From the IMG/VR virus record IMGVR_UViG_3300017917_005108, positions 32,001 to 96,000 of that record: a DNA stretch of 64,000 nt; one strand, 5' to 3'. The notes beneath the pieces are model-generated. The model saw only the letters and a program-made list of their open reading frames with translations, was not told the origin of the DNA and searched no databases. Each line of letters opens with the position of its first letter. Within the stretch, counting starts at the first letter, position 1. The position numbers and the translations under genes were made by a program. This document shows, one piece after another, positions 24,305-62,779 of the stretch. The DNA comes from a virus.

Positions 24305-24332
24305 ATAATAAGATAAGTTTATAAAAAATCAA
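24305..24332 (-). promoter_or_regulatory. sigma70-like promoter TTGATT-N16-TATTAT, ATG 6 nt downstream
   Basis: Read directly; same geometry as nine other sites. Confidence 0.7.
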
Positions 24333-24349
24333 TTGTAATAAGTAATAAT

Positions 24350-24826
24350 ATGAGTGATGAGCTTAATGAAATGGTAGGAGATCTTCTAAATCAATTGGAA
24401 GATGCTAATAAAAAGGCTAAAGATATTGAAAAAGAACAAAATACATTAAAAAAAGAAGATCTAGAGAGGTTTGTTGTTGAAAAGGCAGGGTCACTAGTAC
24501 AAGAAAGCCTGGAAATGTTAAAAAATGTAAAAGATTATATTGTAAGTGCGCCTGAAAGTAAGGATGTAGCCTCTTTTAGTGAATTAGTTGCAGCAACTTC
24601 TACAGCTTTAGATACCCTTAACAAAATTTTAGTAAGTGATAAAAAGAATGAAACGATTGTTAATGTTAAGAAAATGGATATTGATGCTAGAAAAGAATTA
24701 AAACAGGAAGATACTACACAAAAAATGTTAGCTACAAGAGAAGAAGTGTTTAAAATGCTTTTAAATAATGTAAAGACCGCTGAAAAGGAAGTTATTGAAA
24801 TAGAATCTGAGAATACTAGCAAGTAA
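24350..24826 (+). CDS. possible terminase small subunit (gp16-like)
   Basis: Helical 158 aa; SELVAATSTALDTLNKI and C-terminal ATREEVFKMLL loosely match gp16 layout; late-promoter variant TAAGTA 5 nt upstream. Confidence 0.45.
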   Translation: MSDELNEMVGDLLNQLEDANKKAKDIEKEQNTLKKEDLERFVVEKAGSLVQESLEMLKNVKDYIVSAPESKDVASFSELVAATSTALDTLNKILVSDKKNETIVNVKKMDIDARKELKQEDTTQKMLATREEVFKMLLNNVKTAEKEVIEIESENTSK

Positions 24827-26498
24827 ACAGATTTTTATATAAATCTTCAAACGTTTTTGTTATATTATCCACAAAGTTATCTGCAGCATTTTCTAATACT
24901 TTGGATAAATCAAAACTATCGATACCGAATTTAGGAAATATGTTTAAAATCTTAAAAAAGGAATCAAAGAAATTAGCAGGAAAATCAAAATTAGGTGCAG
25001 TAAATGTTGGTAACTGAAAGTTACACAGTGTTGTTTTAAGTTGCTCAATTGAGTTAAATATAGCCATAGGATCTGAAGGTAGTCCTCCATTAAAGGACGC
25101 TGCTAATCCTGCTAGTTCTCCAAATGACCCCAATCCAAAGCCGGGTAAAAATTGGTTAGATGTTGCAAAACCTGTAAACTGGTTTAATAAACTAGGATCT
25201 AGAGATGGTAAAAAGTTAGGAACTGAGGGTAAGCTGAGCTCAGGTATTATAGTGTTTAAATTTAATGACTGTAAAGGTGTATTTTGAAATACATTTCCAG
25301 CAAATTGAGTAGGAAAATTTAAAAATTGATTAACATCACCTATTGCGGTATTAAAGAATTGATTTGGCAAATTCAAGTATTGGTTAGCTTGACCTATAGT
25401 ACTATTTAGTAATTGGTTAGGTTGATTTAAGTAATTTGTAAAATCTATATTAAAATCAAATTTAGGTAGCTCTAAGCTTGTAGGCGAAGGTATAGATGTC
25501 TTTGAAACACTTGGATTCAGATTTAATTGATTTGTTGACCTGTTGTATGCATACGTATTTCTTGTCTTTGGATTAGATAGAGTATTTTTAATTGTTTTGT
25601 CGCTTAAAACTAGCTGAAGTTTGTTGAGCAAGAAGTCAACATTTTGAGTTACATTTTCAACATTAATATCAAAATAAAAATTGTCTACTTTCTGTGCATT
25701 AGATTTATCTAAATCTCTCAGGTTACATGCAATATCGTTTTTTATGTTACTATAATATTCAATAAATGTAAAAAGCTTATTATAATAATCCATTAAAGAA
25801 ACAAATAATCTTGCTAAAATATTTGTATAATCAATAAAAAACTTATAATCACTAACTAAATTCAACCCATGTGATACAGTTGAATCAACATATGGAGGAG
25901 TATTTGGTGAAACATAGTATATATTTCTTAAATTAGTTCTAATCCTAGATGTAGTTTTACTGCTTAACTCATTACTAATATTTGCAGTTATCTCAGATAT
26001 TTTATTTCTAAGCTGTACTGGTATATAGTTAGGAGCACCATATATATTGCAATATATATCGTATGTAGGTGTTGTTGAATCATCTAATTTATTTTCTGTA
26101 TTAACTAGTAAACCTATAGAATCAGAAACAGATGTGTAAAAATTTTTCTTTTTTCCTATCTTTTCTAGCACTTTTTGCTTTATAGGCTCTATAGAACTAT
26201 AAAATCTTTTAGACCAAAATTCTATAAATTCATTGTCTATTTGTTCAAATTTATTATCGTTTAAATCTAAATAAAATTCAGTTAGCTTAGTTACTGGGTC
26301 ACAATCTTGTATATTATTATAGTAAGCTAAGCTTATATTAATTTGATCTTCTATATTTTTAATATTTTCTACATATGTGGAGAATTCTTTAATTATATCT
26401 AAATTAGATGCATAATTTATATCTGCTAGCTGTGGTTGTACAGTCTTCAGGGTTGTTTTTTTGTTACTAGTTTTTTTAGCTGTAAATTCAGGTATCAT
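24816..26498 (-). CDS. hypothetical tail-cluster protein with F/N/Q-rich repeats
   Basis: Coupled (ATGA) to hub gene. Confidence 0.5.
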   Translation of the reverse strand: MIPEFTAKKTSNKKTTLKTVQPQLADINYASNLDIIKEFSTYVENIKNIEDQINISLAYYNNIQDCDPVTKLTEFYLDLNDNKFEQIDNEFIEFWSKRFYSSIEPIKQKVLEKIGKKKNFYTSVSDSIGLLVNTENKLDDSTTPTYDIYCNIYGAPNYIPVQLRNKISEITANISNELSSKTTSRIRTNLRNIYYVSPNTPPYVDSTVSHGLNLVSDYKFFIDYTNILARLFVSLMDYYNKLFTFIEYYSNIKNDIACNLRDLDKSNAQKVDNFYFDINVENVTQNVDFLLNKLQLVLSDKTIKNTLSNPKTRNTYAYNRSTNQLNLNPSVSKTSIPSPTSLELPKFDFNIDFTNYLNQPNQLLNSTIGQANQYLNLPNQFFNTAIGDVNQFLNFPTQFAGNVFQNTPLQSLNLNTIIPELSLPSVPNFLPSLDPSLLNQFTGFATSNQFLPGFGLGSFGELAGLAASFNGGLPSDPMAIFNSIEQLKTTLCNFQLPTFTAPNFDFPANFFDSFFKILNIFPKFGIDSFDLSKVLENAADNFVDNITKTFEDLYKNLFTC

Positions 26499-28054
26499 AG
26501 TGTATTTGATGTTAAGAATATATTATTGTTTGCATAAGTTTTAACACATACCAAATCATTAAAATAAGTAGCATTTTCAAAAACATGTTTCACATTTACA
26601 ATAAAATATACACCTAAAAGCTTTGAATCAAAATCTGACTGAGGTAAGTTAGTATCTCTACTAATTGAAATAAATCTTCCTGCTTGTCTGTGTGTTGATC
26701 CATAAACTCTAAAAATTACAACGTTACTATTCATTACATAGTCATATATTACATTTGATCTTCCAATTGAAAGTCGCTGTTCAGGAGTGCTCTCAAGAGG
26801 ATAAAAAATGTGTTTTATATTTTTATTTTTATCTCTAAATTCTCCTGGTATAATATTAGCATAGTTTGAATTAAAAGGTGTACAAAAATAAGCTATTATT
26901 CTTTTAAAAGTTTCTTTAGAAGAATTTTGTTCATAATCAATCTCAAACATTTTATCTGTATAGCTATAATAATGTACAGCTGTGGGTATTATTTCATCTT
27001 GACTGTGATCTCCTGGCATATTATCAAAAGAATATGAAATAATGTTACCTAGTGTTCTAAAGTAAGGAGCAAACTTTGGTGAATAATTATTTAAAACAGC
27101 ATAATTAGATTGTGTTTGTCCATCTGCGTAACCAGCTAAACGATAGTCTTCTAAATAATATCTGCCTGGTGCCATACCATCTCCAGTTTTTCTAACTGCA
27201 TTTACAAAATAATCACTTAAACTTATTAAAGAAAATTCTTTTGGATATCTCTCTAGTCTTAATATACTAGGCTCATAAGCTGCTCCATCAGAAACTTGTA
27301 AAGAGACGAGGTAATTTAAACTGTCTATAGCTTTATATTTAGCGGGGGCAGAAAAAAATATACTTGTAGCACCCTCATTAAAGTCATCACTAAATGTAAT
27401 ATTAAGATTTTCTTCCTGGTTAAGTGATTGTCTTAAGAGTTCTTTTATTGCTATACCGGTTTTAAGAGAACGCTGCGAATTAGATAAATCATATACTTGA
27501 CCCTGTGTTTGCGGTTCAGAATTATCTGAGTTTATATTAGCAGTAGAAAAATAAGAATCTTTTTCTTTTAAAATTTCATAGTGAATATCCCAAAAATGTA
27601 GTGTTTTGGTTTTATCTGATATATTTTTACCTGCAGAGTCTTCTTCATGATATATAATAAATTCAAAATCTAGTAAAAAATATTTTAAAGACTCTTCATC
27701 TATTGTATCAGCTCCTTCAGTTAGTTTTGGCATTATCTGTATTTTTAATACATCTCTACTATCTCCTTTTAAAATAAATCCTCTATTTTGTTGATTACTC
27801 TCTTCTAATTTTGTTTGTTCTAAATTATCAAAAGAGTTATCAAGCACAACAAATCCTTTGTGAAACGGTGTAGTTAGATCATCTTCTATTACTAATTTTT
27901 TTATGGATTGTGGATTTAAAACTTTTAATCTACCATCAAATGTAGCGATAGAAACACTAAAAATATAATAGTTGTCATTAATTACATAATTAAAGCCTTC
28001 GCTTAAATTGTAGGTTTTTAAAAATGAATTGTTTGAAGGCTGTGTTGAGTTCAT
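26495..28054 (-). CDS. baseplate hub protein (gp27/late-control-D-like)
   Basis: C-terminal GRFISI...GVYFIVNVKHVF...CVK motif; follows gp53. Confidence 0.65.
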   Translation of the reverse strand: MNSTQPSNNSFLKTYNLSEGFNYVINDNYYIFSVSIATFDGRLKVLNPQSIKKLVIEDDLTTPFHKGFVVLDNSFDNLEQTKLEESNQQNRGFILKGDSRDVLKIQIMPKLTEGADTIDEESLKYFLLDFEFIIYHEEDSAGKNISDKTKTLHFWDIHYEILKEKDSYFSTANINSDNSEPQTQGQVYDLSNSQRSLKTGIAIKELLRQSLNQEENLNITFSDDFNEGATSIFFSAPAKYKAIDSLNYLVSLQVSDGAAYEPSILRLERYPKEFSLISLSDYFVNAVRKTGDGMAPGRYYLEDYRLAGYADGQTQSNYAVLNNYSPKFAPYFRTLGNIISYSFDNMPGDHSQDEIIPTAVHYYSYTDKMFEIDYEQNSSKETFKRIIAYFCTPFNSNYANIIPGEFRDKNKNIKHIFYPLESTPEQRLSIGRSNVIYDYVMNSNVVIFRVYGSTHRQAGRFISISRDTNLPQSDFDSKLLGVYFIVNVKHVFENATYFNDLVCVKTYANNNIFLTSNTL

Positions 28055-28416: not shown

Positions 28417-28441
28417 AGAAGTATTTATAAGTAAATTATTA

Positions 28442-29884: not shown

Positions 29885-29894
29885 ACATTAATAT

Positions 29895-32066: not shown

Positions 32067-32095
32067 ATTAATACTTATAAAGAAGTATTAAGTTA

Positions 32096-32869: not shown

Positions 32870-32887
32870 AGAAGTATTTAAACAGGG

Positions 32888-33760: not shown

Positions 33761-33793
33761 AAATATATTTAAAAGTAAACTTTGATATTACAA

Positions 33794-43309: not shown

Positions 43310-43701
43310 TAACTAATATTAACGGTAATTTTTAAATTATCAAGGCTATTTACTGCTTTAGTTATTGATTTGGAAGCATCTTCTAAACTTTTCAAAGCTT
43401 CTTGTAGGTTTTGAGCATTATTGTCTTCACTAAAAATAGGAAAAGAGTTGGAGTTTTTAACCAAACTTAAAGCTATACTTAAATTAGCAATTACTGTTCC
43501 TAAAGAAGGAATTAGATTGGGTAATGGATATGGTAATGCATTATTGTTAACTACTTTATTAGGATACTGATCAGATTCATTTGGTCTTCCTAGCAAATCC
43601 CTTAAAAAAACCTTTTGGGCATTAAATTCTCTTGAAGCTATACCTTGTACCCATTTATTATAATTCATTACAGAATCTTCGTTAATAACGGTATTATTCA
43701 C
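43309..43701 (-). CDS. late hypothetical protein
   Basis: GTG start 5 nt after TAAATA (43707-43712). Confidence 0.6.
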   Translation of the reverse strand: MNNTVINEDSVMNYNKWVQGIASREFNAQKVFLRDLLGRPNESDQYPNKVVNNNALPYPLPNLIPSLGTVIANLSIALSLVKNSNSFPIFSEDNNAQNLQEALKSLEDASKSITKAVNSLDNLKITVNIS

Positions 43702-44156: not shown

Positions 44157-45180
44157 TATCTACCATTAGAAGGTCAGCCTTCAAACCAGAGTAGGAATTC
44201 TCTTTTATAAAGTCTGGTGAAATACTATCTAGGTTTTTTGCTATACAGTATTCATTAATATCCTTAAATGTCTTACCCATTTTTTCTGGCCATATAAAAA
44301 CAGTACACCCTTTATCTATAAGTTTTTTTGTCTTCTTTCTACTAGCACTATCATTCCACTGACTGTCGAGTACCCATATTTTTTTATATAGTTTAAAGTC
44401 ATTAATCTGCTCTTCTTGTATCTTAGTAAAGGTATTAGAACTATTTTCTTGAACACCTGCAACTGCAGTACCATTTTTAATAAAAAATGAATCAATTGGA
44501 CCTTCAAATATAAAAATAGAATCTAAATTTGAACTAATATTGTTGATATTATAGAGAGATTTATCACTATTTACTTTTGAGAGATATTTGGGATAAAGAC
44601 GTGTATCGTCATTTAGTATTGTACGTGATTGATAAAATACAATATTATTATTTTTATCATAGAAAGGTATTACTAGTCTGTTTTTATGAACTCTATCAGT
44701 GAGAGAAATCCAAAGGGTTTTAGGTTTGTTTATAGCAGTATCGAGTCTTCTTTTTTTAATTAGTTTGATAGCTTCACTGACAATAGAGTTATCTTTATAA
44801 TAATTTACTTGCTGTTCATCAAAAAGATTAATTGAGTCTTTAGGAAGGGTATCTGTAATAATTTTCTTTTGGGTATCAGGTTTTTCTAGAAGTAGATCTA
44901 ACGGTAATATATCATAGTTTTTAGATTCTTCATATATTTCTTTTGGTGTTAACCCTGCAACAGTTTCAATCCATTTAGATGGGTTACTATGCCAGCCACA
45001 ATTATGACAGCATATATAATTTTTCTCTATAATAAAATAGCATCTGCGCTTTCTACCCCATGACTTGCCTTCTCTACAGATAGGGCAGCCAGCTTCGTAT
45101 ACATTGGTTATCTTTTTAAATTTTGGATAGCCAGCGTATTGATAGAACTTTTGAACTACATAGTCCTTAGGTAGAATCAC
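44137..45180 (-). CDS. gp61: DNA primase gp61-like
   Basis: CPIC...CHNCG Zn finger, RLVIPF, FEGPIDS TOPRIM, KDINE. Confidence 0.93.
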   Translation of the reverse strand: MILPKDYVVQKFYQYAGYPKFKKITNVYEAGCPICREGKSWGRKRRCYFIIEKNYICCHNCGWHSNPSKWIETVAGLTPKEIYEESKNYDILPLDLLLEKPDTQKKIITDTLPKDSINLFDEQQVNYYKDNSIVSEAIKLIKKRRLDTAINKPKTLWISLTDRVHKNRLVIPFYDKNNNIVFYQSRTILNDDTRLYPKYLSKVNSDKSLYNINNISSNLDSIFIFEGPIDSFFIKNGTAVAGVQENSSNTFTKIQEEQINDFKLYKKIWVLDSQWNDSASRKKTKKLIDKGCTVFIWPEKMGKTFKDINEYCIAKNLDSISPDFIKENSYSGLKADLLMVDINRWKR

Positions 45181-45186: not shown

Positions 45187-45214
45187 ATTATACTAGAAAT
45201 TACAACAAAGTAAA
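45187..45214 (-). promoter_or_regulatory. sigma70-like promoter TTTACT-N16-TATAAT, GTG 6 nt downstream
   Basis: Read directly. Confidence 0.7.
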
Positions 45215-45699: not shown

Positions 45700-46544
45700 A
45701 AATTAGCTTTAAGCTGTTTTACTGCTTGTTCTACTGAACTAAATGTATCAGATAAACTATAACCTATGTTAGAAATTTTAGTTGAAGATAGTACGCAGTT
45801 TGATCTGCCAGCTATAATATTAAGGTCTTTTATTTCCACAAATCTCCAATTAGGGTTAACAAGATTATTCTTTTTAAATATTTCAATAATTTGTTGAGCA
45901 TTAATTTTCTGTGAATTAACTACATTAAAGATACCTGGATAAAACTTGTTAATCATTTTGTATATAAAGTTGCAAAGATCATTGACATTAGTCAAGCTAT
46001 TATCAAAACTAATTAGATCGTTATACTTATATAATTTATAGAGATAGTTTTTATTCTCAGGGTTACCGTCAAAAGGCATTCTAATTCTAAGTATAGAAGA
46101 GTTTGTGAAGTCAAATATGGTTTCAAGAATATGCTTTGTCTTTGAATAAAAACTTGAATCGGGATTAAAGAGGCCAAAATTAGGAATGTCATTTTCTGTA
46201 AACTGTTTCTCGTACCCAGTATATATACACCCACTAGATACACATATATGATTAATCTTATACTCTGTACAGAGCTTGTTAATTAATAGACCTATTTTTA
46301 CGTTATAATAATAACACAATTCTTTATTTGACTCACATCCATCTACATTAGGCGATCCTGTATATCCACTGCAATTAACTACACAGTCAAAAACACCATT
46401 AGAAAGTATTCTTCTCAATTCAGATTCAGAAGTATAATCTAAGATTTTTTGTGAATATGCTGTTACTACAACATTCTTTTCTTCTAGAAATGTCTTAAGT
46501 TTTGAGCCTATATAGCCAAGGCCTAAAATAAGTACTCGAGGCAT
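45696..46544 (-). CDS. NDP-4-keto-6-deoxyhexose 3,5-epimerase/4-reductase (NRS/ER, RmlD-related SDR)
   Basis: GLGYIG, TGSPNVDGCESNK, SSGCIY, FYSKTK, LRIRMP. Confidence 0.8.
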   Translation of the reverse strand: MPRVLILGLGYIGSKLKTFLEEKNVVVTAYSQKILDYTSESELRRILSNGVFDCVVNCSGYTGSPNVDGCESNKELCYYYNVKIGLLINKLCTEYKINHICVSSGCIYTGYEKQFTENDIPNFGLFNPDSSFYSKTKHILETIFDFTNSSILRIRMPFDGNPENKNYLYKLYKYNDLISFDNSLTNVNDLCNFIYKMINKFYPGIFNVVNSQKINAQQIIEIFKKNNLVNPNWRFVEIKDLNIIAGRSNCVLSSTKISNIGYSLSDTFSSVEQAVKQLKANL

Positions 46545-46550: not shown

Positions 46551-46578
46551 AGTTTAAAGTATAAAAAAACTATATCAA
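46551..46578 (-). promoter_or_regulatory. sigma70-like promoter TTGATA-N16-TAAACT, ATG 6 nt downstream
   Basis: -35 box contains the upstream gene's TGA stop. Confidence 0.7.
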
Positions 46579-47248: not shown

Positions 47249-47980
47249 TTAATTAGCTAATGCTGAAACAATAAACTTAATATCTGTATTAGGTAGGTTT
47301 GTTTCAAACACATATACTCCTATTTTTGTAGAAAATGAACATTTTAAGTCTTTGAATCTCATAGAAGAAATTATTCTAAAAATTTCAAAGTTCAACGGCG
47401 TGGGTATGGCTAGCTGTGGCCCAGTATAATCAGAAGAAATCTGTAGACCATATGAGTCTACATTTGGCCTTGTCTTGTCTGTTAATTCACCAGTAACAAA
47501 ATTATCCTTAAAGCTAAGATATATCTTATTAGTATCTGTGGCTATAGAACTTCCTTTAATTAACTTAATCAAATCTGCATACGTAAGAGTGAATTTACCG
47601 TCAAACTGCAGGTTATTAAGTTTATCCATGCTAAGTTTTGGTACAGTAATAATGCCGTTCTCAAACAAATGGTATTTAAATCTGACATCTGCAGATTTGT
47701 AAGATAGAGAATTATTATCAAGCGTTAACTCAATACTATCTTTATCAATAACTGAAATAATACGTGTAAGCTTTGATAGGTCAGGTATATTAAGCGTTGT
47801 ATCGACTAGCTCGTCTTCTGTGGTATACTGTGCATTTAATATAATTGTATTATCTGAGGTTGAGATAAGTGTTGAGATTTTTTTATCTTTTAGCTTAAAG
47901 ACAGCGCTATTAGTAACCTTGCTTACTGGTATTAGAAAGTTATTTAAAAACCCGTTTCTATCTTTAACTGAAACAATCAT
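47249..47980 (-). CDS. gp45: sliding clamp (gp45/PCNA-fold)
   Basis: 243 aa, LNIPDLSKL motif, beta-rich, near SSB. Confidence 0.7.
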   Translation of the reverse strand: MIVSVKDRNGFLNNFLIPVSKVTNSAVFKLKDKKISTLISTSDNTIILNAQYTTEDELVDTTLNIPDLSKLTRIISVIDKDSIELTLDNNSLSYKSADVRFKYHLFENGIITVPKLSMDKLNNLQFDGKFTLTYADLIKLIKGSSIATDTNKIYLSFKDNFVTGELTDKTRPNVDSYGLQISSDYTGPQLAIPTPLNFEIFRIISSMRFKDLKCSFSTKIGVYVFETNLPNTDIKFIVSALAN

Positions 47981-47987: not shown

Positions 47988-48015
47988 ATTCTAAAATAAA
48001 ATTTTAGAAGATCAA
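47988..48015 (-). promoter_or_regulatory. sigma70-like promoter TTGATC-N16-TAGAAT, ATG 7 nt downstream
   Basis: -35 box contains upstream TGA stop. Confidence 0.7.
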
Positions 48016-48466: not shown

Positions 48467-49333
48467 TTATAGATCTTCAAGCAGTTTCTGTAAAGATTCA
48501 TCTTCTGCAGTTGAAGTGCTAGATGGCTTAGTAGTCTCAACCTTTACAGCTTCTGTCTTCGGTGTAGGAAGACTAGCATTTTTAGTCTTTGCTGATTCGT
48601 CTTTTTCAACTACATCAACATCTACGTTGCAATGATAATGCTTGCTGAGTAGATCTTTTAATTCATCATACGACTTAACAGTAAGGTATGATTCAAGATC
48701 AAATACACTGTTATAAATCTTGCTATATGAATCTTCATCTAGACCTTCAACTTCTTTAGGGGAGGTAAACTTAGAGGAAACATATGTAGGATAGTCACCC
48801 TGCTTTTCTACCTTAATCTTAAAGTTTACGCCTTTAGGGCTTAAATCAAAAATACGAGGGCCAAGTTCTTCTGCTTCTTCACCCTGCATTGCATCCATAA
48901 TAATCTTATGAAGCTGGCGACCAAAACGAAGAATTTTAACTTTATTGTTATTCTCTTCGTTCACTGGGTCATTGATAACATAACAGTTAACAAGCCAACG
49001 CTCTGTACGTACAATGCCTTTTGCCTTTTCCTTCTCCTTATCAGTACCGTTTCTTAAGATTCTATAACGCTCCTCAGCAATAGGATCACGCTGATTCCAG
49101 GTGGTAGGGCTTACTGCAGTAATAAGCTGACCAGTAGAAAAGCTATTCCAGCCATAGGAATAGTAGTGCAAAAAGGTTTTAGTAGGATCCTTGGTAAAGG
49201 GTAGAAGTCTAACCGTATAAGTATTGCCTACCTCAGTGCGTAAAAAGTCCTTAATCTTATTTGAACTATTGCTAGTTTCTTTAGTGAGAGCCGATCTAAT
49301 GCTTTCAAACATCGAGTTGGTAATGGAATTCAT
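48467..49333 (-). CDS. gp32: single-stranded DNA-binding protein gp32-like
   Basis: VRLLP, DPI, YVINDP...KVKILRFG, IFDL...GVNFKIK...YPTYVSSKF, acidic tail. Confidence 0.88.
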   Translation of the reverse strand: MNSITNSMFESIRSALTKETSNSSNKIKDFLRTEVGNTYTVRLLPFTKDPTKTFLHYYSYGWNSFSTGQLITAVSPTTWNQRDPIAEERYRILRNGTDKEKEKAKGIVRTERWLVNCYVINDPVNEENNNKVKILRFGRQLHKIIMDAMQGEEAEELGPRIFDLSPKGVNFKIKVEKQGDYPTYVSSKFTSPKEVEGLDEDSYSKIYNSVFDLESYLTVKSYDELKDLLSKHYHCNVDVDVVEKDESAKTKNASLPTPKTEAVKVETTKPSSTSTAEDESLQKLLEDL

Positions 49334-49339: not shown

Positions 49340-49367
49340 ATAATAGTATATAGAGAGATAATATCAA
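49340..49367 (-). promoter_or_regulatory. sigma70-like promoter TTGATA-N16-TATTAT, ATG 6 nt downstream
   Basis: -35 box contains upstream TGA stop. Confidence 0.7.
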
Positions 49368-50005
49368 GCATTTTCTTTAATTTTTTTTATACCTTGTTCT
49401 ACAAAAACTTTACACTTTTTAGAATTTAGAAACTTTACCTTAAAAGTGTCAAAATTATTAACAAAATCCTCACCAAGCATAAATCTAACTACTTCTAAAT
49501 CTGATTTTTTAAAATTTTTTTCAAATGTATTAAAACCAAATAATGAATAAATGTTAATTTTTCTTTCTTTTAAGTGTATTAAGAAATAATGTAAATTGTT
49601 AGATACTTTATCAGTATATAGTTCTAATGGAATGTTTTCTTTACTGCAAAACTCTCTTATAAAAAGAAGAGAATTTTTTGTAAAAGCTAACTGTTCATCT
49701 GAATCGGGGTCAAGCTTTTCTCTTTGTTTTTGTACAATTGTATATGCTTTAGTAGCTTTTAATGTAGAGAAGTGTTTAAGATCTAAAAACGGCGAATCTT
49801 TATACACAATAAATGATGCACTAAAAAAATCTTCAGGCTTAACTTCTTTATTTCTATTGAAGAAATTAACTATCTTTTTCAAATATACAAATGCTTCGTC
49901 GTTTAAAGTAGAAAAATCTTTTCTAAGCTTATAAGGCTTATTATTATTTGATCTTAAGACTTTTAGATATGTGTTGTATATGTACTTGTCGAAATCTGTT
50001 ACCAT
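49364..50005 (-). CDS. hypothetical protein, possibly gp59-like helicase loader
   Basis: Basic 213-aa helical protein directly upstream of gp32, the T4 position of gene 59. Confidence 0.4.
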   Translation of the reverse strand: MVTDFDKYIYNTYLKVLRSNNNKPYKLRKDFSTLNDEAFVYLKKIVNFFNRNKEVKPEDFFSASFIVYKDSPFLDLKHFSTLKATKAYTIVQKQREKLDPDSDEQLAFTKNSLLFIREFCSKENIPLELYTDKVSNNLHYFLIHLKERKINIYSLFGFNTFEKNFKKSDLEVVRFMLGEDFVNNFDTFKVKFLNSKKCKVFVEQGIKKIKENA

Positions 50006-50208
50006 TTATAATACTTCCACTTGTTCCTAAGAACTTGTGGCTTTATCTTTTTCAGCATGCTTGGTTTGAGGTATGTACGTTTAAGGCGAAGCTCTTCCAT
50101 AATAAAAGATCTGCTTACTTCGCTTGAAAACTTTTTTAACATTCTTTCAAAATATTCTTTATCAGAACATCTTTCTTTCTTTAATTTTACTTCGGCTTTT
50201 ATAATCAT
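49999..50208 (-). CDS. rpsU: ribosomal protein bS21-like
   Basis: 69 aa, basic; FERMLKKFSSEVSRSFIMEELRLKRTYLKPS matches bS21 pattern (E-x-x-L-R/K-R/K-F...I-x-x-E-x-R-x-x-x-x-Y-x-K-P-S). Confidence 0.72.
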   Translation of the reverse strand: MIIKAEVKLKKERCSDKEYFERMLKKFSSEVSRSFIMEELRLKRTYLKPSMLKKIKPQVLRNKWKYYKW

Positions 50209-51384: not shown

Positions 51385-51387
51385 CTT

Positions 51388-51415
51388 ATCTTATATAAAG
51401 GAAGACCTAAATCAA
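51388..51415 (-). promoter_or_regulatory. sigma70-like promoter TTGATT-N16-TAAGAT
   Basis: ATG 3 nt and in-frame GTG 6 nt downstream; -35 box contains helicase TGA stop. Confidence 0.6.
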
Positions 51416-52737: not shown

Positions 52738-52745
52738 TATCTTTA

Positions 52746-53441
52746 TTATATACCTAAACTAGAATATTCACTAAGAAATTTTTCCTGGCTCTGTGTAAAA
52801 GATGGGTCATTAGGATTTAATAAACCGGGTGATCTATGAATTACCCATATAGGATGAACACCAAGCTTTAATTTTTTGGAATTTGCATCTAAACTACTTG
52901 CAATATCGTAATGATGGAATTTATAATTTTCATTAAACTTCCATCCAGACTTTTTAATTTTTTTAGTATCAATACTTATAAACAGACCATCTAGAATTGC
53001 TACGCGTGAAGGAGTGGCGCCAAAAGTAGTCATAACTAACGATTCGTTATCTGCAAAATGGGCAACAGCTCCTCTAAGATTACCACTACCAAAGCCACCG
53101 CACATTAAATGCCATAAAGCTGGTCTTATTATTTTTGCATTCACACCGCCAGCAAGACCAACTATATCATATCTTGTATGAGCTGCTACAAGCTTATCTA
53201 CGACATTAAAGTCATCTATATAAACATCATCATGAACAAAAACTATATAATCATAATTTGAAATATTATCAAATAATTCTTTATTATATCTTACACTAAG
53301 GCCATCAGTGTTATTGCAAGCATAGTGTATATCAATATCGTGCTGTGTTTTTACTTTTTCTGTTATTTTAGATATACTGTTGTAGAAAAGAGTATTTTCT
53401 ATGCTTGGGCTTCTAGTAGCGCTAAAAAATGCTATCTTCAT
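52746..53441 (-). CDS. GT-A fold glycosyltransferase-like protein
   Basis: YN...VFVHDDV, VGLAG, LDGLFI, FHHYD. Confidence 0.75.
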   Translation of the reverse strand: MKIAFFSATRSPSIENTLFYNSISKITEKVKTQHDIDIHYACNNTDGLSVRYNKELFDNISNYDYIVFVHDDVYIDDFNVVDKLVAAHTRYDIVGLAGGVNAKIIRPALWHLMCGGFGSGNLRGAVAHFADNESLVMTTFGATPSRVAILDGLFISIDTKKIKKSGWKFNENYKFHHYDIASSLDANSKKLKLGVHPIWVIHRSPGLLNPNDPSFTQSQEKFLSEYSSLGI

Positions 53442-54124
53442 GCAGTAAAGAAAGGTGAATTTGGTTTAAATTCACCAACAGATGTGAGCCCTTCCACTGT
53501 TTGTAAAAAAAGTGTACCTTCTTCGAGAGGTTTGAATTTATCGTGCGGTATAGATGAGAAATCATTGCTAATATAATCTGCATATAGCGTGCTTCCAGAA
53601 CGAGCTAGATATACGTTACCGGTTTTGCTATTATATATCCAAAGTCCAAATGTTCCTTTTAAAAGTGATAATGCAGTACAAATACAGTCAACTTCTTTCT
53701 TCGACTTCTCGCAGACAGAATGTATCAGTGCAGGTATAACAGATGAATCTACTTCATTAATGCTTTTATATTTTTTAAGCTGCTTTTTAAGCTCATTATG
53801 ATTTGTAAGAACACCATTATGCGCTACATACCATTCCTTCTCATTAAATGGATGAGTTGTATCGTGTTTATAGTCTCTTTGAGATGAGGTCGGTGCTTGC
53901 GTATGGCCAAGGTAATTCTTAAAATCACTCAAAAGCATAGATTTTTTTCCCTTCAATTGAAGGGCTGGTTTTCCAGAAAAATTAAATGTTCCTTTTACTT
54001 TTACAACAGCGTGTAACTTATTGTCAATAAACACACCTCCATAAGAGAAATTACCTCGTTTCTTATTTTTCTTATATAAAGACACATATCTTTTATAATC
54101 CTTTGATCCGAAGATACCGCACAT
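53438..54124 (-). CDS. class-II (Ntn) glutamine amidotransferase
   Basis: N-terminal MCGIFG, GHTQAPT, HPF, AHNGVLTN, VDS. Confidence 0.9.
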   Translation of the reverse strand: MCGIFGSKDYKRYVSLYKKNKKRGNFSYGGVFIDNKLHAVVKVKGTFNFSGKPALQLKGKKSMLLSDFKNYLGHTQAPTSSQRDYKHDTTHPFNEKEWYVAHNGVLTNHNELKKQLKKYKSINEVDSSVIPALIHSVCEKSKKEVDCICTALSLLKGTFGLWIYNSKTGNVYLARSGSTLYADYISNDFSSIPHDKFKPLEEGTLFLQTVEGLTSVGEFKPNSPFFTA

Positions 54125-54130
54125 TCATAT

Positions 54131-54159
54131 ATTATATGCGATTAGCATAAATAATTCAA
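54131..54159 (-). promoter_or_regulatory. sigma70-like promoter TTGAAT-N17-TATAAT, ATG 6 nt downstream; opposite-strand late TAAATA inside its spacer
   Basis: Read directly. Confidence 0.7.
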
Positions 54160-54160
54160 G

Positions 54161-55763: not shown

Positions 55764-56847
55764 TTGAATTATACTTGTATTCTTCGGTTAAGCGCTTGTC
55801 GAGTTCAGGTATAATGAATTCCTCGTAGAAAGCGGGGTCTTTTGCAAAACTCTTTGCATACCCTAGTTTATCACCTTTCTTATATTTTCCACTTGTAACA
55901 CCTACAGTATAAGTAGCACCATTTTGTTCAACAATACCTCTTGCTGCAGCCATTCCTAATAACCCACTATACTTGTTAAGTCCTGTCTTAAAGGACAGAT
56001 ACATTTCTGTCTCTAAGAATGGCGGTAAGAAGCGATTCTTTACAGTTAAAGCACGTAATGTTGTACCGCTGTATTTGTTAGCCTCTGCAATCTTTTTATC
56101 TTCTGCATCAATAGAATCACCTTCACCCTCTTTTTCATGACGCTTAGCAAGCTGTACAAGTATACTAGCCATGTATACTGGACCTGAGCCACCAGCTTGA
56201 TTCTTCACAAGACTAGGAAACATTGCAGCTGGGTCATCATATGTATGGTTAGTAAAGAGAATAGTTACACCAGCTTTTGCAGCTTTGAAAGTTAGAGTAC
56301 GGAATAAACTCTTAAGAGACTTTGCCCTAAGTCCCATATCAGCAGCTGATTTATCCTTTGCAACGTCGTCTAGCTCTTTTTGAGAAGCGAGATTACCTAA
56401 ACTATCAATACTAATAATAAATTTACCTTTAGCATTATTTTCTACTACACTATCAAGAAATGCTGCGATTTGGTTACGACACTGATCAATAGTATCTACA
56501 GGTACGTACTTAGTGTTTTCAGGATCTAAGCCAACACCTTTTGTACTATTTTCATCTATAGCAATTTCTGTGTCAAATATGACCGGTGTAATGCCTTTCT
56601 TTTGAGCATTAGCTAGAATCTTATTTACAATAAATGTTTTACCAGTTTGACTTGGTCCAGAGAATCCTGTTATTCTTCCCTTAGGGACACCACCACCGCG
56701 GCAACTGCCACCAAGTATAGCGTTAAGAGCATAACATCCTGTATCAAACCACTCATCAACTTTACTAAGTGCATTTTCGTTTAAAAAGGAAGCTTCGCTA
56801 TTTAGTTTATCTAGACTTGCAAATATTTTACTAAGGTCTTTGCTCAT
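55729..56847 (-). CDS. uvsX: RecA-like recombinase UvsX
   Basis: DTGCYALN, GPSQTGKT, FDTE, IDSLGNL, DMGLRAK, TNHTY, GGSG. Confidence 0.93.
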   Translation of the reverse strand: MSKDLSKIFASLDKLNSEASFLNENALSKVDEWFDTGCYALNAILGGSCRGGGVPKGRITGFSGPSQTGKTFIVNKILANAQKKGITPVIFDTEIAIDENSTKGVGLDPENTKYVPVDTIDQCRNQIAAFLDSVVENNAKGKFIISIDSLGNLASQKELDDVAKDKSAADMGLRAKSLKSLFRTLTFKAAKAGVTILFTNHTYDDPAAMFPSLVKNQAGGSGPVYMASILVQLAKRHEKEGEGDSIDAEDKKIAEANKYSGTTLRALTVKNRFLPPFLETEMYLSFKTGLNKYSGLLGMAAARGIVEQNGATYTVGVTSGKYKKGDKLGYAKSFAKDPAFYEEFIIPELDKRLTEEYKYNSNEAQTEEEPHE

Positions 56848-56853
56848 AGTTCT

Positions 56854-56881
56854 AGTATATTATAATTTGATAATATATCAA
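56854..56881 (-). promoter_or_regulatory. sigma70-like promoter TTGATA-N16-TATACT, ATG 6 nt downstream
   Basis: Read directly. Confidence 0.75.
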
Positions 56882-56884
56882 CTA

Positions 56885-57244
56885 TTATTCGTCAAAGAGC
56901 TTGATAACTTTTTCAGGCTGAGGGGCAGCTGCAGGTGCAGGCTGCGCAGTAAACAATCTCTTATACTGCTCTAGAAGACGTTCATCATTCTCAACATCAA
57001 CAGCTTCAACAATAGAAGCTCTGTTAAAATTCCAAGTAGAACCAGCTTCACGGTTCTTTTCTGAAATAAATTCTCTAAAATAGAGAGGGATAGTCTGGAC
57101 ATTAAGTTGTCCCTGGGGTGTAGGCTGTACATGAAGAATAGCAGGATTCTTTACCTTTAGCTTATCCTTTGTCTCATCAACAAGTTCAGCAATAATGGTA
57201 CGGCCAATGTGATCAATAAAAGTTACAATATTTTGGTTACTCAT
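56885..57244 (-). CDS. hypothetical protein (possible Sm-like fold)
   Basis: G-x-x-IIAEL...LKVKNPA pattern; own promoter. Confidence 0.55.
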   Translation of the reverse strand: MSNQNIVTFIDHIGRTIIAELVDETKDKLKVKNPAILHVQPTPQGQLNVQTIPLYFREFISEKNREAGSTWNFNRASIVEAVDVENDERLLEQYKRLFTAQPAPAAAPQPEKVIKLFDE

Positions 57245-57250
57245 ACTACA

Positions 57251-57278
57251 ATTTTATTATATTTTATCTAGAAATCAA
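57251..57278 (-). promoter_or_regulatory. sigma70-like promoter TTGATT-N16-TAAAAT, ATG 6 nt downstream
   Basis: Read directly. Confidence 0.7.
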
Positions 57279-59413: not shown

Positions 59414-60164
59414 TAATTGTATCCTGCAGTAGATTGTTGTATCTTATTTTTGTCTTGTGATAGAAGAAATTACTGTGTACAGGCTTTAAATTTTTATCTT
59501 CAAACAAATAATCATCCACATTCATATTAAAATGACTATATAGGTTTGTTATAAATTCTTTTAAATTTACAGGATTACCTGAGCCTACCATTGACATATT
59601 TCGTACAAATTGAGACCTAAAAATCACATACTTAGGATGTACTAGGTCTCTTTTAAAATTTAAATCACCTGTATTAATTTTTTGGCTATTAATAATACTA
59701 TTAAAAATTTTGCTAAATAAAAATCCTTCTTTTCTGTATGGTGTATTAAAGTTGAATGGATGTACGAGATGTATATTGTTTGCTTTTTTATTATCTATAA
59801 ATTCTAATACATTTTCAGTTAAAACATGTTTTGATTTAAGGTAGGGGGAGTATTTATAGTTTATTGGTGTATCTATGGTGACACCGCCTTCATAGTTATT
59901 CCATAAATCGCCAGTACCATATAAATAAAAATCTGTTTTATCGTTATAAAGTTTTTCTAAAATTTCAAAAGTTAAAGCCACGTTTACATTTAGATAATCT
60001 TTCTCTGGTAAATCTAGAAAAGTTCTTTGTTCACAAAAAAAGAAATAAATTTTGTTCGCTTTTTTAGCTATATTATAATCAATGTCATTGGTTGAACAAA
60101 AAACAGTGTTTTCTTTTTCTATATATTGAGCTAGCTGCGAGTTCTTACCTATTACTAAATTCAT
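59379..60164 (-). CDS. NDP-sugar dehydratase/reductase SDR (GMD/RMD-like, divergent)
   Basis: SPYLKSK (YxxxK), FNFNTPYRKEGFLFSKI, GDLNFKRD. Confidence 0.7.
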   Translation of the reverse strand: MNLVIGKNSQLAQYIEKENTVFCSTNDIDYNIAKKANKIYFFFCEQRTFLDLPEKDYLNVNVALTFEILEKLYNDKTDFYLYGTGDLWNNYEGGVTIDTPINYKYSPYLKSKHVLTENVLEFIDNKKANNIHLVHPFNFNTPYRKEGFLFSKIFNSIINSQKINTGDLNFKRDLVHPKYVIFRSQFVRNMSMVGSGNPVNLKEFITNLYSHFNMNVDDYLFEDKNLKPVHSNFFYHKTKIRYNNLLQDTINDIKNFKSKAS

Positions 60165-62746
60165 ACGCCTAATAACTCAAACAAGTCTGCCTGAACTTGG
60201 ACATTTGGTGCTTTGAGCTTCCAGTTAACTGATTCATAGAATCTTTCAATAACAGAGAAAATAATCTTTTCAAACATTTTTTCATGATCTGGTTCAAATA
60301 TGTCAATAAATTCTTTCGGGTAGTAATACTTATAACCTATAATACTAACTCCATATCTATTAGGTTGCTTTACATAAAAATAGCGAACCTTATCACCTGA
60401 TGCCATTTTCTCGTATTTTCTAGCTATTTTAAATTTATCCAAAAGTAAATTATGATAGTAGGCAGCTTTAACATGAATAGGCATATGTTTTGCAACATTA
60501 AAGTTATCACACTGTGCGGCGTATTTTTCGTATCCTTTAATACCCATTACAAAAGCAATATCTTCCACCCCAAGAGTCTTAAACGTTTCGTATGTTTCTT
60601 TAAAAATTTTATTAGTTTCTGCTTGACTCTGTGTCATTAACATTGTTTCTATAATTTTTTTAACATAGGGTTTAATTGGAGTAGGCATCGTAGTTCTAAC
60701 TACTTCTACACCGGTATATTTGAACTTATTACATGGTATTCCCTCCTCATCAAGAATATGTAAAACATATCTCTTTTTCTGTAAGAATAAACCTGTATCT
60801 GCTATTACTTCTCTTTTAAAGTTTAATCTGCAATCTTTAGAATTAAGAGATGAGGAGCCCCATTTTTTAATTTCTTCATTGAGATAATCTTCAATCTGTT
60901 GTACTTCTTTATAATATTCATTGGTTACTTTGCCATGTTTATCTAGCATTTTTAATCCAAGCTTTTTAACGAGATGTTTAATAGAAATATAACTTGAGTC
61001 TGTATCATTATAAATGATGGGTGTGCTCTCTTCAATTTCTTTATCTGTAAGAGCTGCTTTATTTTTGATATAATCTATAAGAAGTTTATTTGACTGCTTA
61101 ATTACAGCTTGACCAGTAAGAGTAATGGATTCAGCTAATTCATCATCACCTAATGGGCTATGCTTATTGCCAAAGTATCCATAAATTGTATTAATGAGAA
61201 TTTTAATGGTATGCTGTTGAATGTTTAAATTGTCTACATGGTGTTTAGTTTCATTGTATTCTGGTGAAGATTTTTCTAGCTGAGACAGTTTTCTTTTTGC
61301 ATTTTTAAGGTGCTTTTTTAATTCTACTCTTTTTGCATAATACCAATCTACTGTTTCAGGAATAATACCTTTCTCCTTCTGTGAGAACAACACCTTTGCT
61401 TTAGAGATAGCAATTTGCTCTTTTTCAACAAATTTTAAAAAATTATTAGTGGTTAGCTTGAATGTCTGTCCATTGACGTGTTTAAGTGTCACTTCATTTT
61501 CATCCTTATCAATAATTGTACCAACCTTAGTTTCAGGAGAGAGATTTAACGTAATCATCACGTTAGGGTACAGGCTGTTAGCATCAAAAGAAACAATATT
61601 TTCTTGAAACCCTTTTACAGGTTCACCTACATAAGCACCTGCATTTTGTTCATCATTTTCTTTACCCTTCTTAAAAGTAGGTATGCGTCTATTACGGTGT
61701 CTTGCTCTAATTGCACATAGTCCAGTAATAACAGATAAAGAACCTAATGCACCTTCAAATGTAGTAAGCCCTGCATATGCTATCATTCTTAACAGCTGTA
61801 GGTATTGTAGCTTTTTTTCCAAATTTACAAGCAAGTTAACGTCTTGAATATTATAATCTACAAACAACTCCCAATTATCATCAGCAAGACTAGTCAGATT
61901 TGTATCGCCATAATCAACTTTTCTCTCACCAAGCTCAGTCTCACCGATAGCGTCTAGTTTATAAGACTCGCGTAATACAGGGCAAAAGCGTTTATAGATA
62001 TCAAGATAATCAACACATGAAACACCCTCGATATGCCAATGGACCTGCTCTTTACCAAACTTACCAGTAAATACAACGGGTCTTATATGACCGACAGGTG
62101 AAAGTTTTTTAGTATAATCTTCACCGAGAATTTTTGTAATTCTATTTACAATATAAGGAATATCGAAAAACTCACTATTCCAGCCAGAAAGAATATCGGG
62201 ATAATCTGATTGAAAATAATTTAAAAACTTCTCTAACAACTCTCTTTCAGTCTTGCAGTGATAATAATATGCACCCTGAGACTTTTTAGTATATGGCTTT
62301 AAGCCCCAGGTAAGAAACTGTTGCTTTAAAGTATCATAAACAGTAATAATGTTTATAGGATGCTCTGGATTAGAGGGAGATGGAAAACTGTCAGGGCTAT
62401 ATGTCTCAATATCAATAAATAATACTTTTAAAGGGTGTTTATTAAAATCTTCATCTTCATTGTTTTTCCAGAAATTGTCTATAAGAAACTGCTGCTGTAC
62501 ATTTAAATTTTCAAATACTCTTGTTACACTATTATCTTTGAGATATCTTGCTCTTTCAGCTTGATTTTTAAACTTCTTCTTTTTTAGCTTTGTATTAAAG
62601 ATACTAAGTACATCTGTTTCAAAATTAGTTTCAAGAAAAATATAAGGCTCAAAAGTAGTATCATAACTAATACGGCTACCAGATTCATCCCAGGTAAAAA
62701 GACGTATTACCTGCTCTCTAGGAATATAGGCTACATTTCTAAACAC
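60161..62746 (-). CDS. gp43: family B DNA polymerase gp43-like
   Basis: DIET, GWNSEFFDIPY, YNIQD, SFDANSLYP, KILINTIYG, YNDTDS, KKRY. Confidence 0.97.
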   Translation of the reverse strand: MFRNVAYIPREQVIRLFTWDESGSRISYDTTFEPYIFLETNFETDVLSIFNTKLKKKKFKNQAERARYLKDNSVTRVFENLNVQQQFLIDNFWKNNEDEDFNKHPLKVLFIDIETYSPDSFPSPSNPEHPINIITVYDTLKQQFLTWGLKPYTKKSQGAYYYHCKTERELLEKFLNYFQSDYPDILSGWNSEFFDIPYIVNRITKILGEDYTKKLSPVGHIRPVVFTGKFGKEQVHWHIEGVSCVDYLDIYKRFCPVLRESYKLDAIGETELGERKVDYGDTNLTSLADDNWELFVDYNIQDVNLLVNLEKKLQYLQLLRMIAYAGLTTFEGALGSLSVITGLCAIRARHRNRRIPTFKKGKENDEQNAGAYVGEPVKGFQENIVSFDANSLYPNVMITLNLSPETKVGTIIDKDENEVTLKHVNGQTFKLTTNNFLKFVEKEQIAISKAKVLFSQKEKGIIPETVDWYYAKRVELKKHLKNAKRKLSQLEKSSPEYNETKHHVDNLNIQQHTIKILINTIYGYFGNKHSPLGDDELAESITLTGQAVIKQSNKLLIDYIKNKAALTDKEIEESTPIIYNDTDSSYISIKHLVKKLGLKMLDKHGKVTNEYYKEVQQIEDYLNEEIKKWGSSSLNSKDCRLNFKREVIADTGLFLQKKRYVLHILDEEGIPCNKFKYTGVEVVRTTMPTPIKPYVKKIIETMLMTQSQAETNKIFKETYETFKTLGVEDIAFVMGIKGYEKYAAQCDNFNVAKHMPIHVKAAYYHNLLLDKFKIARKYEKMASGDKVRYFYVKQPNRYGVSIIGYKYYYPKEFIDIFEPDHEKMFEKIIFSVIERFYESVNWKLKAPNVQVQADLFELLGV

Positions 62747-62751
62747 AAATA

Positions 62752-62779
62752 ATTATAACTTTTTATATAAAGATATCAA
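62752..62779 (-). promoter_or_regulatory. sigma70-like promoter TTGATA-N16-TATAAT, GTG 5 nt downstream
   Basis: -35 box contains upstream TGA stop. Confidence 0.78.

What the first reader, a model, noticed from the sequence alone, without database searches (positions are those of the whole stretch)
24305..62779. Replication genes have near-identical sigma70-like promoters with a 16-bp spacer and start codon at about +1
Seen: ten sites (dut, primase, epimerase-reductase, clamp, SSB, DHH, GATase, uvsX, ORF 57244, polymerase) read TTGAT(A/T/C), TTGAAT or TTTACT, then N16 (one N17), then TAnnnT, then 5-7 nt, then ATG/GTG (DHH via its second codon GTG). Remaining genes are mostly coupled by ATGA/TAATG overlaps or 1-6 nt gaps; no SD motifs seen. 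Established: sigma70 initiates about 6-7 nt after -10 and prefers a 17-bp spacer. Inference: early/middle mRNAs are leaderless too; the fixed 16-bp spacer points to a particular host or phage sigma, and the consensus does not match Bacteroidota (TAnnTTTG) promoters.
Basis: partly seen in the sequence, partly recalled or inferred. Interest (0 to 1): 0.8.

Follow-up and report, generated by a model that had tools for sequence, protein, structure and literature searches.

The report
Phage promoters fused to start codons
In this uncultured T4-like water phage, the replication genes sit directly behind ordinary bacterial-type promoters. These are placed so that the RNA should begin at the start codon itself, with no ribosome-binding leader; related phages share the layout, but it is predicted from sequence and not yet measured.

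Summary
Observation confirmed and extended. All ten sites are as described. In the whole 162-kb genome, 28 starts carry TTGnnn-N16(25)/N17(3)-TAnnnT followed by 5-8 nt (17 at 6) and then ATG/GTG. About 0.33 would be expected by chance for the N16 form (P~6e-29), and other spacers are at chance. A second class, TAAATA plus 5 nt, precedes 56 starts. Most other genes overlap the gene before them (ATGA), and no Shine-Dalgarno signal exists.

The modal gaps are 6 nt after a -10 box ending at -7 and 5 nt after a T4 late box ending at -6. Both put +1 on the first base of the start codon. Orthologous promoters and gaps are kept in relatives down to 50% PolB identity while the spacer sequence drifts. 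T4, S-PM2 and C48C1 lack the pattern; Thermus phage phiYS40, experimentally leaderless, shows it.

The only sigma-like gene found is a gp55 homologue; no sigma region 4, AsiA or MotA was found. The boxes are therefore most likely read by the host's main sigma. They are not Bacteroidota-type and differ from pelagiphage HTVC008M's. The 16-bp spacer is not fixed across the clade (16/17 mixed in a sister genome). No transcript 5' ends were available and the host is unknown. This scan has noted the same design in other aquatic T4-like genomes.

The parts
24305..24332 (-). E-type promoter of dut: TTGATT-N16-TATTAT, 6 nt, ATG at 24298
   Evidence: dUTPase by Pfam; kept in G001 and G002
43316..43343 (-). 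It lies inside the preceding ORF, which overlaps as TAATG.
   Evidence: an orthologous site is present in G001 (140-aa ORF); less certain than the others
45187..45214 (-). Primase promoter: (G)TTTACT-N16-TATAAT, 6 nt, GTG at 45180
   Evidence: primase by PHROG; the GTG start and layout are kept in G001 and G002
46551..46578 (-). RmlD-like gene promoter: TTGATA-N16-TAAACT, 6 nt, ATG at 46544. The TGA stop of the upstream gene lies inside the -35 box.
47988..48015 (-). Sliding-clamp promoter: TTGATC-N16-TAGAAT, 7 nt, ATG at 47980. The upstream TGA stop lies inside the -35 box.
   Evidence: PCNA-like fold; promoter kept in seven relatives
49340..49367 (-). gp32-like SSB promoter: TTGATA-N16-TATTAT, 6 nt, ATG at 49333. 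The upstream TGA stop lies inside the -35 box.
49999..50208 (-). Phage bS21 gene, translationally coupled (ATGA) inside the operon driven from 51415
   Evidence: Pfam Ribosomal_S21, 31.1 bits against a cut-off of 27; nearest clusters are viral; gaps
51388..51415 (-).
   Evidence: the L013 orthologue starts at GTG 5 nt after its -10 box, which favours GTG as the start
52745..52750 (-). -10 box TATAAT, 7 nt before ATG 52737 of the 441-aa gene. The -35 is degenerate here (GTGAAT/AGTGAA).
   Evidence: orthologues in L006 and L013 carry full TTGATT/TTGATA-N16 promoters
54131..54159 (-). GATase promoter, the one N17 site: TTGAAT-N17-TATAAT, 6 nt, ATG at 54124
   Evidence: the same N17 layout occurs in G001
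56854..56881 (-). UvsX promoter: TTGATA-N16-TATACT, 6 nt, ATG at 56847
   Evidence: kept in ten relatives with changed -35 letters and spacer sequence
57251..57278 (-). ORF119 promoter: TTGATT-N16-TAAAAT, 6 nt, ATG at 57244
   Evidence: kept in all 12 relatives tested, down to 35% protein identity
62752..62779 (-). DNA polymerase promoter: TTGATA-N16-TATAAT, 5 nt, GTG at 62746. The upstream TGA stop lies inside the -35 box.

Best explanation
The sites are early/middle promoters read by the host RNA polymerase with its housekeeping (sigma70-family) sigma. Region 4 reads TTGAta and region 2 reads TAtaaT. They are placed so that transcription starts on the A or G of the start codon. The first gene of each unit is then translated from a 5'-terminal AUG or GUG (leaderless initiation). 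The following genes are translated by termination-reinitiation across ATGA or TAATG overlaps, and no Shine-Dalgarno pairing is used anywhere. The late genes follow the same design with gp55-type TAAATA boxes.

Shown: the motifs, their spacing, their excess over chance, their conservation, and the absence of SD and of a phage sigma carrying region 4.

Inferred: the exact transcription start, the identity of the sigma, and the mode of translation.
For: 1. Bipartite motif with spacer specificity. Starts follow it at 5-7 nt only for N16 (and N17): 20 observed against 0.33 expected.
2. Two promoter classes have different modal gaps: 6 nt after TAnnnT and 5 nt after TAAATA. The -10 box ends at -7 and the T4 late box spans -13 to -6 (PMC1524935). 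Both gaps therefore place +1 on the first base of the start codon.
3. Positive control: Thermus phage phiYS40, whose middle/late mRNAs are reported to be leaderless (PMC3594737 citing Sevostyanova 2007), shows the same peak at 6 nt. Negative controls T4, S-PM2, RM378 and C48C1 do not; T4 late boxes lie 13-34 nt from starts.
4. Orthologous promoters and gaps are kept in relatives with 50-85% PolB identity while spacer sequences diverge.
5. There is no SD. Mean anti-SD duplex energy is +0.44 for E starts and +0.45 for L starts, against -0.96 for background.
6. GTG starts: 21 of 84 promoter-adjacent starts against 3 of 63 coupled ones (p 0.0012). TTG starts are almost absent. 75 of 84 are the first start codon of their ORF. 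A pyrimidine sits at -1 in 60 of 84 against 33 of 63 (p 0.024), which fits the Y-1/R+1 rule for transcription starts.
7. Gaps before E genes cluster at about 30 nt, just the length of a promoter, and the upstream TGA stop lies inside the -35 box at six genes.
8. The only sigma-like gene is a gp55 homologue. No Sigma70_r4, r4_2, AsiA or MotA hit was found in three related records, and T4 scored positive as a control.
Against:
- Terminator-like sites are not clearly above chance (12 against 7.3, sd 2.7). The same start codons must therefore also occur inside read-through transcripts, where another way of initiating would be needed.
- The 5' ends of E and L coding regions are not less structured than internal windows (p 0.18).
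- Some orthologues have longer gaps: SSB 14 nt in G002 and L011, GATase 9 nt in G002. The rule is therefore not absolute.
- The host is unknown, so it is not shown that its sigma prefers TTGAta-N16-TAtaaT.
- The records are only 60-77% complete, so a phage factor could be missing from them.
Confidence: 0.7

Rival explanations
1. The promoters are real, but most translation of these genes comes from longer read-through transcripts. The fixed short gap then reflects genome compaction, or a double use of the AT-rich promoter as an unstructured, SD-independent ribosome landing site, rather than leaderless initiation.
For: - Terminator-like sites are only marginally above the shuffles.
- Genes are packed, with about 30 nt between them and stop codons inside -35 boxes.
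- Internal coupled genes also lack SD, so the host must be able to initiate without SD.
- A few orthologues have 9-14-nt gaps.
Against: - Compaction alone does not predict two different modal gaps (5 and 6 nt) that each match the known distance from box to +1.
- It does not predict the excess of GTG and near absence of TTG at promoter-adjacent starts, or the pyrimidine at -1.
- T4-like phages that are equally compact (T4, S-PM2) keep 13-35-nt leaders.
Confidence: 0.15
2. The E boxes are read not by the host's housekeeping sigma but by a phage-encoded or phage-modified factor: an unrecognised sigma or appropriator, or an alternative host sigma. The 16-bp spacer would be its signature. This would allow a host, such as a member of Bacteroidota, whose own promoters look different.
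For: - The strong preference for 16 bp in this genome, 25:3.
- No SD use and a phage bS21, both features linked in the literature to phages predicted to infect Bacteroidetes (PMC9723584).
- The records are 60-77% complete.
- Many ORFs have no known function.
Against: - No region-4-bearing sigma, AsiA or MotA was found in three related records.
- The boxes are canonical (TTGA.., TA...T with A-11 and T-7).
- The same boxes precede small early-type ORFs, which must be read before any phage protein is made.
- The spacer is mixed 16/17 in sister genomes.
- Bacteroidota-type boxes are depleted, so nothing else is visible that host sigmaA could use for early genes.
Confidence: 0.12
3. The matches are chance products of AT-rich DNA.
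For: A generic sigma70 consensus scan is barely above the shuffles in this 31% GC DNA: 105 hits against 91.
Against: - Spacer-specific and position-specific excess with P about 6e-29.
- A motif-blind scan recovers the boxes.
- Orthologous conservation in relatives.
Confidence: 0.01

Closest known systems
Leaderless middle/late transcripts of Thermus thermophilus phage phiYS40 (Sevostyanova et al. 2007, as summarised in PMC3594737)
   Same: A large, AT-rich myovirus (152 kb, 32.6% GC). Its host-sigma promoters sit 6 nt before ATG or 4 nt before GTG. My scan finds the same peak at 6 nt.
   Different: - phiYS40 is not T4-like; no PolB match was found.
- Its boxes are TTGACA-N17 with a TG extension.
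- Its host belongs to a phylum in which leaderless mRNAs are common.
- It has no gp55-type late class.
- In phiYS40 leaderless transcripts are reported from experiment; here they are only predicted.
[quoted passage not shown]
   Same: A Pribnow box 6-8 nt before the start codon of the first gene of an operon, with ATG or GTG at the 5' end.
   Different: In those bacteria only 25-50% of operons are leaderless and the remaining genes use SD. Here no SD class is visible at all, and the -35 box is strong.
T4 early promoters and T4 late promoters (gp55, gp33, gp45; TATAAATA at -13 to -6; PMC1524935)
   Same: - Same two-tier logic: host sigma first, gp55 later.
- A gp55 homologue and a PCNA-like clamp are present.
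- The primase -35 box (GTTTACT) even matches the T4 early -35 consensus GTTTAC.
   Different: - T4 transcripts carry leaders; the late box lies 13-34 nt from the start.
- T4 has MotA/AsiA middle promoters, which are absent here.
PeSL cassettes (early promoter plus stem-loop) of T4-type phages RB49 and phi1 (PMC2839356)
   Same: Strong sigma70-like promoters repeated in front of many genes. Sister genome G002 has seven near-identical cassettes of promoter plus small ORF.
   Different: PeSLs carry a terminator stem-loop and a Shine-Dalgarno sequence between the -10 box and the ATG. Here there is neither.
Pelagibacter phage HTVC008M (cultured T4-like)
   Same: Twelve TAAATA boxes lie exactly 5 nt before starts, so some late genes have the same design. 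It is also an aquatic, AT-rich T4-like phage.
   Different: Its host-type promoters are TTGACT-N17(TGn)-TAnnnT, with 9-13 nt to the ATG. PolB identity is only 31%.

Membership tests
sigma70-type (housekeeping sigma) promoters | -35 hexamer related to TTGACA | tested here: met
   TTG is fixed by the search pattern, A is found at position 4 in 24 of 28 sites, and the consensus is TTGAta. TTGATA at -34 is also recovered by a motif-blind scan.
sigma70-type (housekeeping sigma) promoters | -10 hexamer TAnnnT (A-11 and T-7), consensus TATAAT | tested here: met
   Consensus TAtaaT. TATAAT and TATTAT at -12 from the start are recovered by a motif-blind scan.
sigma70-type (housekeeping sigma) promoters | Spacer of 17 +/- 1 bp | tested here: met
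   16 bp in 25 sites and 17 bp in 3. Spacers of 13-15 and 18-20 are at chance. This is within the accepted range but shifted to 16.
sigma70-type (housekeeping sigma) promoters | Transcription by core RNA polymerase plus housekeeping sigma, starting about 7 nt after the last T of the -10 box | not testable with these tools
   No RNA 5' ends or biochemistry were available, and the host is unknown.
Leaderless mRNAs | Transcription start on, or within about 1-2 nt of, the first base of the start codon | not testable with these tools
   Only geometry is available: 6 nt after the -10 box and 5 nt after the late box. The phiYS40 control behaves the same way.
Leaderless mRNAs | No Shine-Dalgarno sequence or other leader signal before the start | tested here: met
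   Anti-SD duplex energy is weaker than background, and 3 of 84 starts carry an SD 4-mer. No SD hexamer is enriched.
T4 middle promoters (sigma appropriation) | MotA box TGCTTtA at -30, together with motA and asiA genes | tested here: not met
   The box is TTGAta at -34 to -29. No AsiA or MotCF hit was found in G000, G001 or G002, while T4 scored positive.
Bacteroidota sigmaA promoters | -7 box TAnnTTTG and -33 box TTTG | tested here: not met
   TAnnTTTG occurs 7 times upstream of starts against 14.7 expected. T precedes TTG in only a few of the 28 sites. The reference consensus is from PMC9723704.
PeSL cassettes | Promoter plus terminator stem-loop plus SD before the ATG | tested here: not met
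   Terminator-like sites number 12 against 7.3 expected, and none sits at the promoters. There is no SD.
T4-type late promoters (the second, TAAATA class) | TATAAATA-like box, a gp55 late sigma and a sliding clamp | tested here: met
   The box reads aaTAAATAwT. A gp55 homologue matches T4 gp55 at E 5e-10. The clamp has a PCNA-like fold. gp33 was not searched.

The most novel reading that the evidence does not exclude
A whole clade of aquatic T4-like phages has given up ribosome-binding leaders. Every transcription unit, whether read by the host sigma or by gp55, would start at a 5'-terminal AUG or GUG, and all other genes would be coupled. Promoter position would then be under translational selection. 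The phage's own bS21, which is encoded inside one of these operons, may help to bias host ribosomes towards this SD-free mode.
Probability: 0.4. Interest if true: 0.72.

Novelty: new variant of a known kind. Interest (0 to 1): 0.55.

Why it matters
T4 is the textbook model of phage gene expression, and its messages carry leaders with ribosome-binding sites. Here a T4 relative appears to run both its host-sigma programme and its gp55 programme on leaderless messages, including GUG-initiated ones, with no SD use at all.

If RNA mapping confirms this:
- It gives a natural, genome-wide system for studying leaderless initiation and its competition with host mRNAs.
- It explains why gene callers that rely on ribosome-binding sites would misplace starts in such phages.
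- It offers a sequence rule (box to start codon) for annotating starts and timing classes in thousands of uncultured aquatic phages.
- The promoter consensus (TTGAta-N16/17-TAtaaT, no TG extension, not Bacteroidota-type) becomes a testable clue to the unknown host.

Tried and rejected
- Host identification failed. There is no cultured relative above 40% TerL or PolB identity. The bS21 look-alikes are viral. The single genome-contig scan, spent on bS21, gave one weak Gemmatimonadaceae hit. The GMP-reductase-like gene was uninformative.
- A phage initiator tRNA was considered and rejected. The only tRNA is an elongator-type tRNA-Met, with a paired 1-72 and no G-C triplet next to the anticodon loop.
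- The generic promoter/terminator scan does not discriminate in this AT-rich DNA.
- The test for less structure at 5' ends was not significant.
- The clamp could not be shown by BLAST or hhalign against T4 gp45. A predicted structure was needed.
- The 'DHH' label was not confirmed by PHROGs, Pfam or PDB sequence search.
- Literature searches on leaderless mRNAs with T4-like phages, cyanophages or Pelagibacter returned only citations of GeneMarkS-2.
- The Sevostyanova 2007 paper is not held and is cited second-hand.
- One mistyped query and several rejected search terms were errors of mine.
Full report
**What the DNA is.** The window is bases 32001-96000 of a 162,497-bp IMG/VR virus record with 31% GC, estimated 77% complete. 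It encodes the following:
- a T4-type family-B polymerase, UvsX, a gp32-like SSB and a primase;
- dUTPase, an RmlD-like enzyme, a glutamine amidotransferase and a bS21;
- a tail sheath and a large terminase;
- a 243-aa protein whose predicted structure (pLDDT 87) is a PCNA-like sliding clamp with TM 0.72-0.78.

No cultured phage exceeds about 31% PolB or 40% TerL identity. It is therefore a distant, uncultured T4-like phage.

**The observation.** All ten sites read as described.
- In the window, TTGAT-N17-TANNNT (a 16-bp spacer) occurs 20 times against 9.5 expected. None of 100 shuffles reaches 20, and the 15-bp and 17-bp versions are at chance.
- In the whole genome, TTGAnn-N16-TAnnnT occurs 74 times, and 21 of these lie 3-9 nt (mode 6) before the ATG or GTG of an ORF of at least 50 codons. 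Spacers 13-15 and 17-20 give 1-5 such cases.
- The chance expectation for the N16 form at 5-7 nt is 0.33; 20 are seen (P about 6e-29).
- A scan that knows nothing of the motif (first ATG or GTG of each ORF, every hexamer at every offset) returns TAAATA at -11 (36 against 0.2 expected), TTGATA at -34 (7 against 0.18) and TATAAT/TATTAT at -12. It returns no SD-like word.

**Genome-wide anatomy.** The 201 ORFs were called with a simple longest-ORF rule and fall into three groups.
- E starts (28): TTGnnn-N16 (25) or N17 (3)-TAnnnT, then 5-8 nt (17 at 6 nt).
- L starts (56): TAAATA, then 5 nt (37), 6 nt (12) or 7 nt (7).
- Coupled genes (62): they follow a same-strand gene with a gap of 2 nt or less, and 35 of them have the ATGA overlap.

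E genes are preceded by gaps of 19-37 nt (mode 30), which is just the length of a promoter. At six of them the TGA stop of the upstream gene lies inside the -35 hexamer, T-TGA-nn.

SD pairing is absent. Mean duplex energy to the anti-SD is +0.44 (E) and +0.45 (L), against -0.96 for random positions. The few SD-like sites cluster in the last 3 kb of the contig, which also has 40-46% GC.

**Why the start codon is probably +1.**
- T4 late boxes span -13 to -6, and the conserved T of the -10 hexamer is at -7 (PMC1524935). A late box therefore needs 5 nt, and a -10 hexamer needs 6 nt, to put +1 on the next base. These are exactly the two modal gaps.
- Promoter-adjacent starts use GTG in 21 of 84 cases against 3 of 63 coupled starts (p 0.0012), and almost never TTG. 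75 of 84 are the first start codon of their ORF.
- The base before them is a pyrimidine in 60 of 84 cases against 33 of 63 (p 0.024). Both features fit the preference of RNA polymerase for Y at -1 and R at +1; that preference is established knowledge, not tested here.
- The GTG starts of PolB, primase and the 300-aa ORF are kept in relatives.

**Controls.** The same distance scan was run on other phage genomes.

| Phage | Result |
|---|---|
| T4 | TATAAATA lies 13-34 nt from starts; none at 5-7 nt |
| S-PM2 | Late boxes lie 19-37 nt from starts |
| RM378, C48C1 | No peak |
| phiYS40 | Peak at N17 and 6 nt (9 sites), plus 4 nt before GTG |
| HTVC008M | 12 TAAATA boxes at 5 nt; host-type promoters are TTGACT-N17(TGn)-TAnnnT with 9-13 nt to the ATG |

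phiYS40 is the positive control. Its middle/late transcripts are reported to be mostly leaderless (PMC3594737 summarising Sevostyanova 2007; the original paper is not held). The host-type promoters of HTVC008M differ from those of this phage.

**Relatives.** 24 IMG/VR loci carry PolB at 50-85% identity.
- The PolB promoter keeps -35, a 16-17 spacer, -10, a 5-8 nt gap and the start codon, while the spacer sequence changes.
- Over 242 kb of relatives, N16 with a 6-nt gap gives 31 sites and N17 with a 6-nt gap gives 12. Other combinations give 0-3.
- Orthologues of all ten genes keep the layout where they head a unit. Exceptions are SSB in G002 and L011 (14 nt) and GATase in G002 (9 nt). In the most distant pair, L019 and L021, UvsX is coupled instead.
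- Spacer preference varies by lineage: 25:3 (16:17) here, 14:5 in G001 and 8:14 in G002. Seven of the N17 sites in G002 are one repeated cassette in front of 62-88-aa ORFs.

**Which sigma.**
- The only sigma-like ORF is a gp55 homologue just beyond the window: genome 98.9-99.45 kb, E 5e-10 to T4 gp55, and a sub-threshold Sigma70_r2 hit. It accounts for the TAAATA class.
- No Sigma70_r4, Sigma70_r4_2, AsiA or MotCF hit occurs in this record or in G001 or G002. T4 and the control genomes score as expected.
- The E box precedes both small early-type ORFs and replication genes.

The simplest reading is the host's housekeeping sigma. Bacteroidota-type boxes (TAnnTTTG at -12 to -5; PMC9723704) are depleted upstream of starts, 7 against 14.7 expected. 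A Bacteroidota host therefore looks unlikely unless an undetected factor retargets its polymerase. The host remains unknown.

**Limits.**
- Terminator-like sites are not clearly enriched, so read-through transcripts must also exist. How the same start codons are used within them is open.
- The 5' coding ends are not detectably less structured than internal windows.

**Comparison and novelty.**
- A -10 box abutting the ORF is a known mode in Actinobacteria and Deinococcus-Thermus (PMC6028130, PMC12340547) and in phiYS40.
- PeSL cassettes of T4-type phages have strong sigma70-like promoters, but with a stem-loop and an SD (PMC2839356).
- My literature searches found no description of leaderless design in T4-like phages.
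- Earlier unchecked notes of this scan report the same design in several other aquatic T4-like genomes and in HTVC008M. I re-tested the HTVC008M claim.

I therefore class this as a new variant of a known kind: real, clade-wide and probably unpublished, but predicted rather than measured.

Noticed in passing
window 46575-46578, 48012-48015, 49364-49367, 51412-51415, 62776-62779 (minus strand): The TGA stop codon of the upstream gene lies inside the -35 hexamer (T-TGA-nn) of the next gene's promoter. This gives a fixed 29-31-nt intergenic gap at six E genes genome-wide.
   Followed up: partly
window 49999-50208 (-): A phage bS21 gene (Pfam 31.1 bits) is translationally coupled inside the replication operon driven by the promoter at 51415. 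Its nearest protein clusters are all viral.
   Followed up: partly
genome 158000-162497 (66-70 kb beyond the window end): The last 4.5 kb of the contig has 40-46% GC, against 31% overall. It carries most of the SD-like sites and the only tRNA, an elongator-type tRNA-Met. It may be a different module or an assembly chimera.
   Followed up: partly
G002:C1:5684-9600 (L050): Seven near-identical cassettes of promoter plus small ORF: agc-TTGAAA-ttcct...-N17-TATACT-aatagt-ATG, with ORFs of 62-88 aa. They resemble PeSLs but have no SD.
   Followed up: no
Pelagibacter phage HTVC008M (L061-L068): Twelve TAAATA boxes lie exactly 5 nt before ORF starts. The host-type promoters read TTGACT-N17(TGn)-TAGGAT/TATAAT and sit 9-13 nt before the ATG, which implies leaders of only about 3-6 nt.
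   Followed up: partly
window 24350 (+), 32066 (-); genome 150274 (-): A variant late box, TAAGTA, also lies 5 nt before start codons.
   Followed up: no
L032:2900-3559 (-), genome 98900-99559: The start of the gp55-like late-sigma ORF is ambiguous. An in-frame GTG lies 4 nt after the upstream gene's TAA and is preceded by AAGGA, one of the very few SD-like contexts in the genome.
   Followed up: no
window 63987 (-): The 403-aa gene upstream of PolB has TTGAAT-N16-TAAAAT 12 nt before its ATG, which would give a leader of about 6 nt. Its orthologues in relatives have gaps of 4-7 nt.
   Followed up: partly
genome 283-688 (-): A phage tmRNA of the standard one-piece form, with a 33-aa tag ending in LELV.
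   Followed up: no
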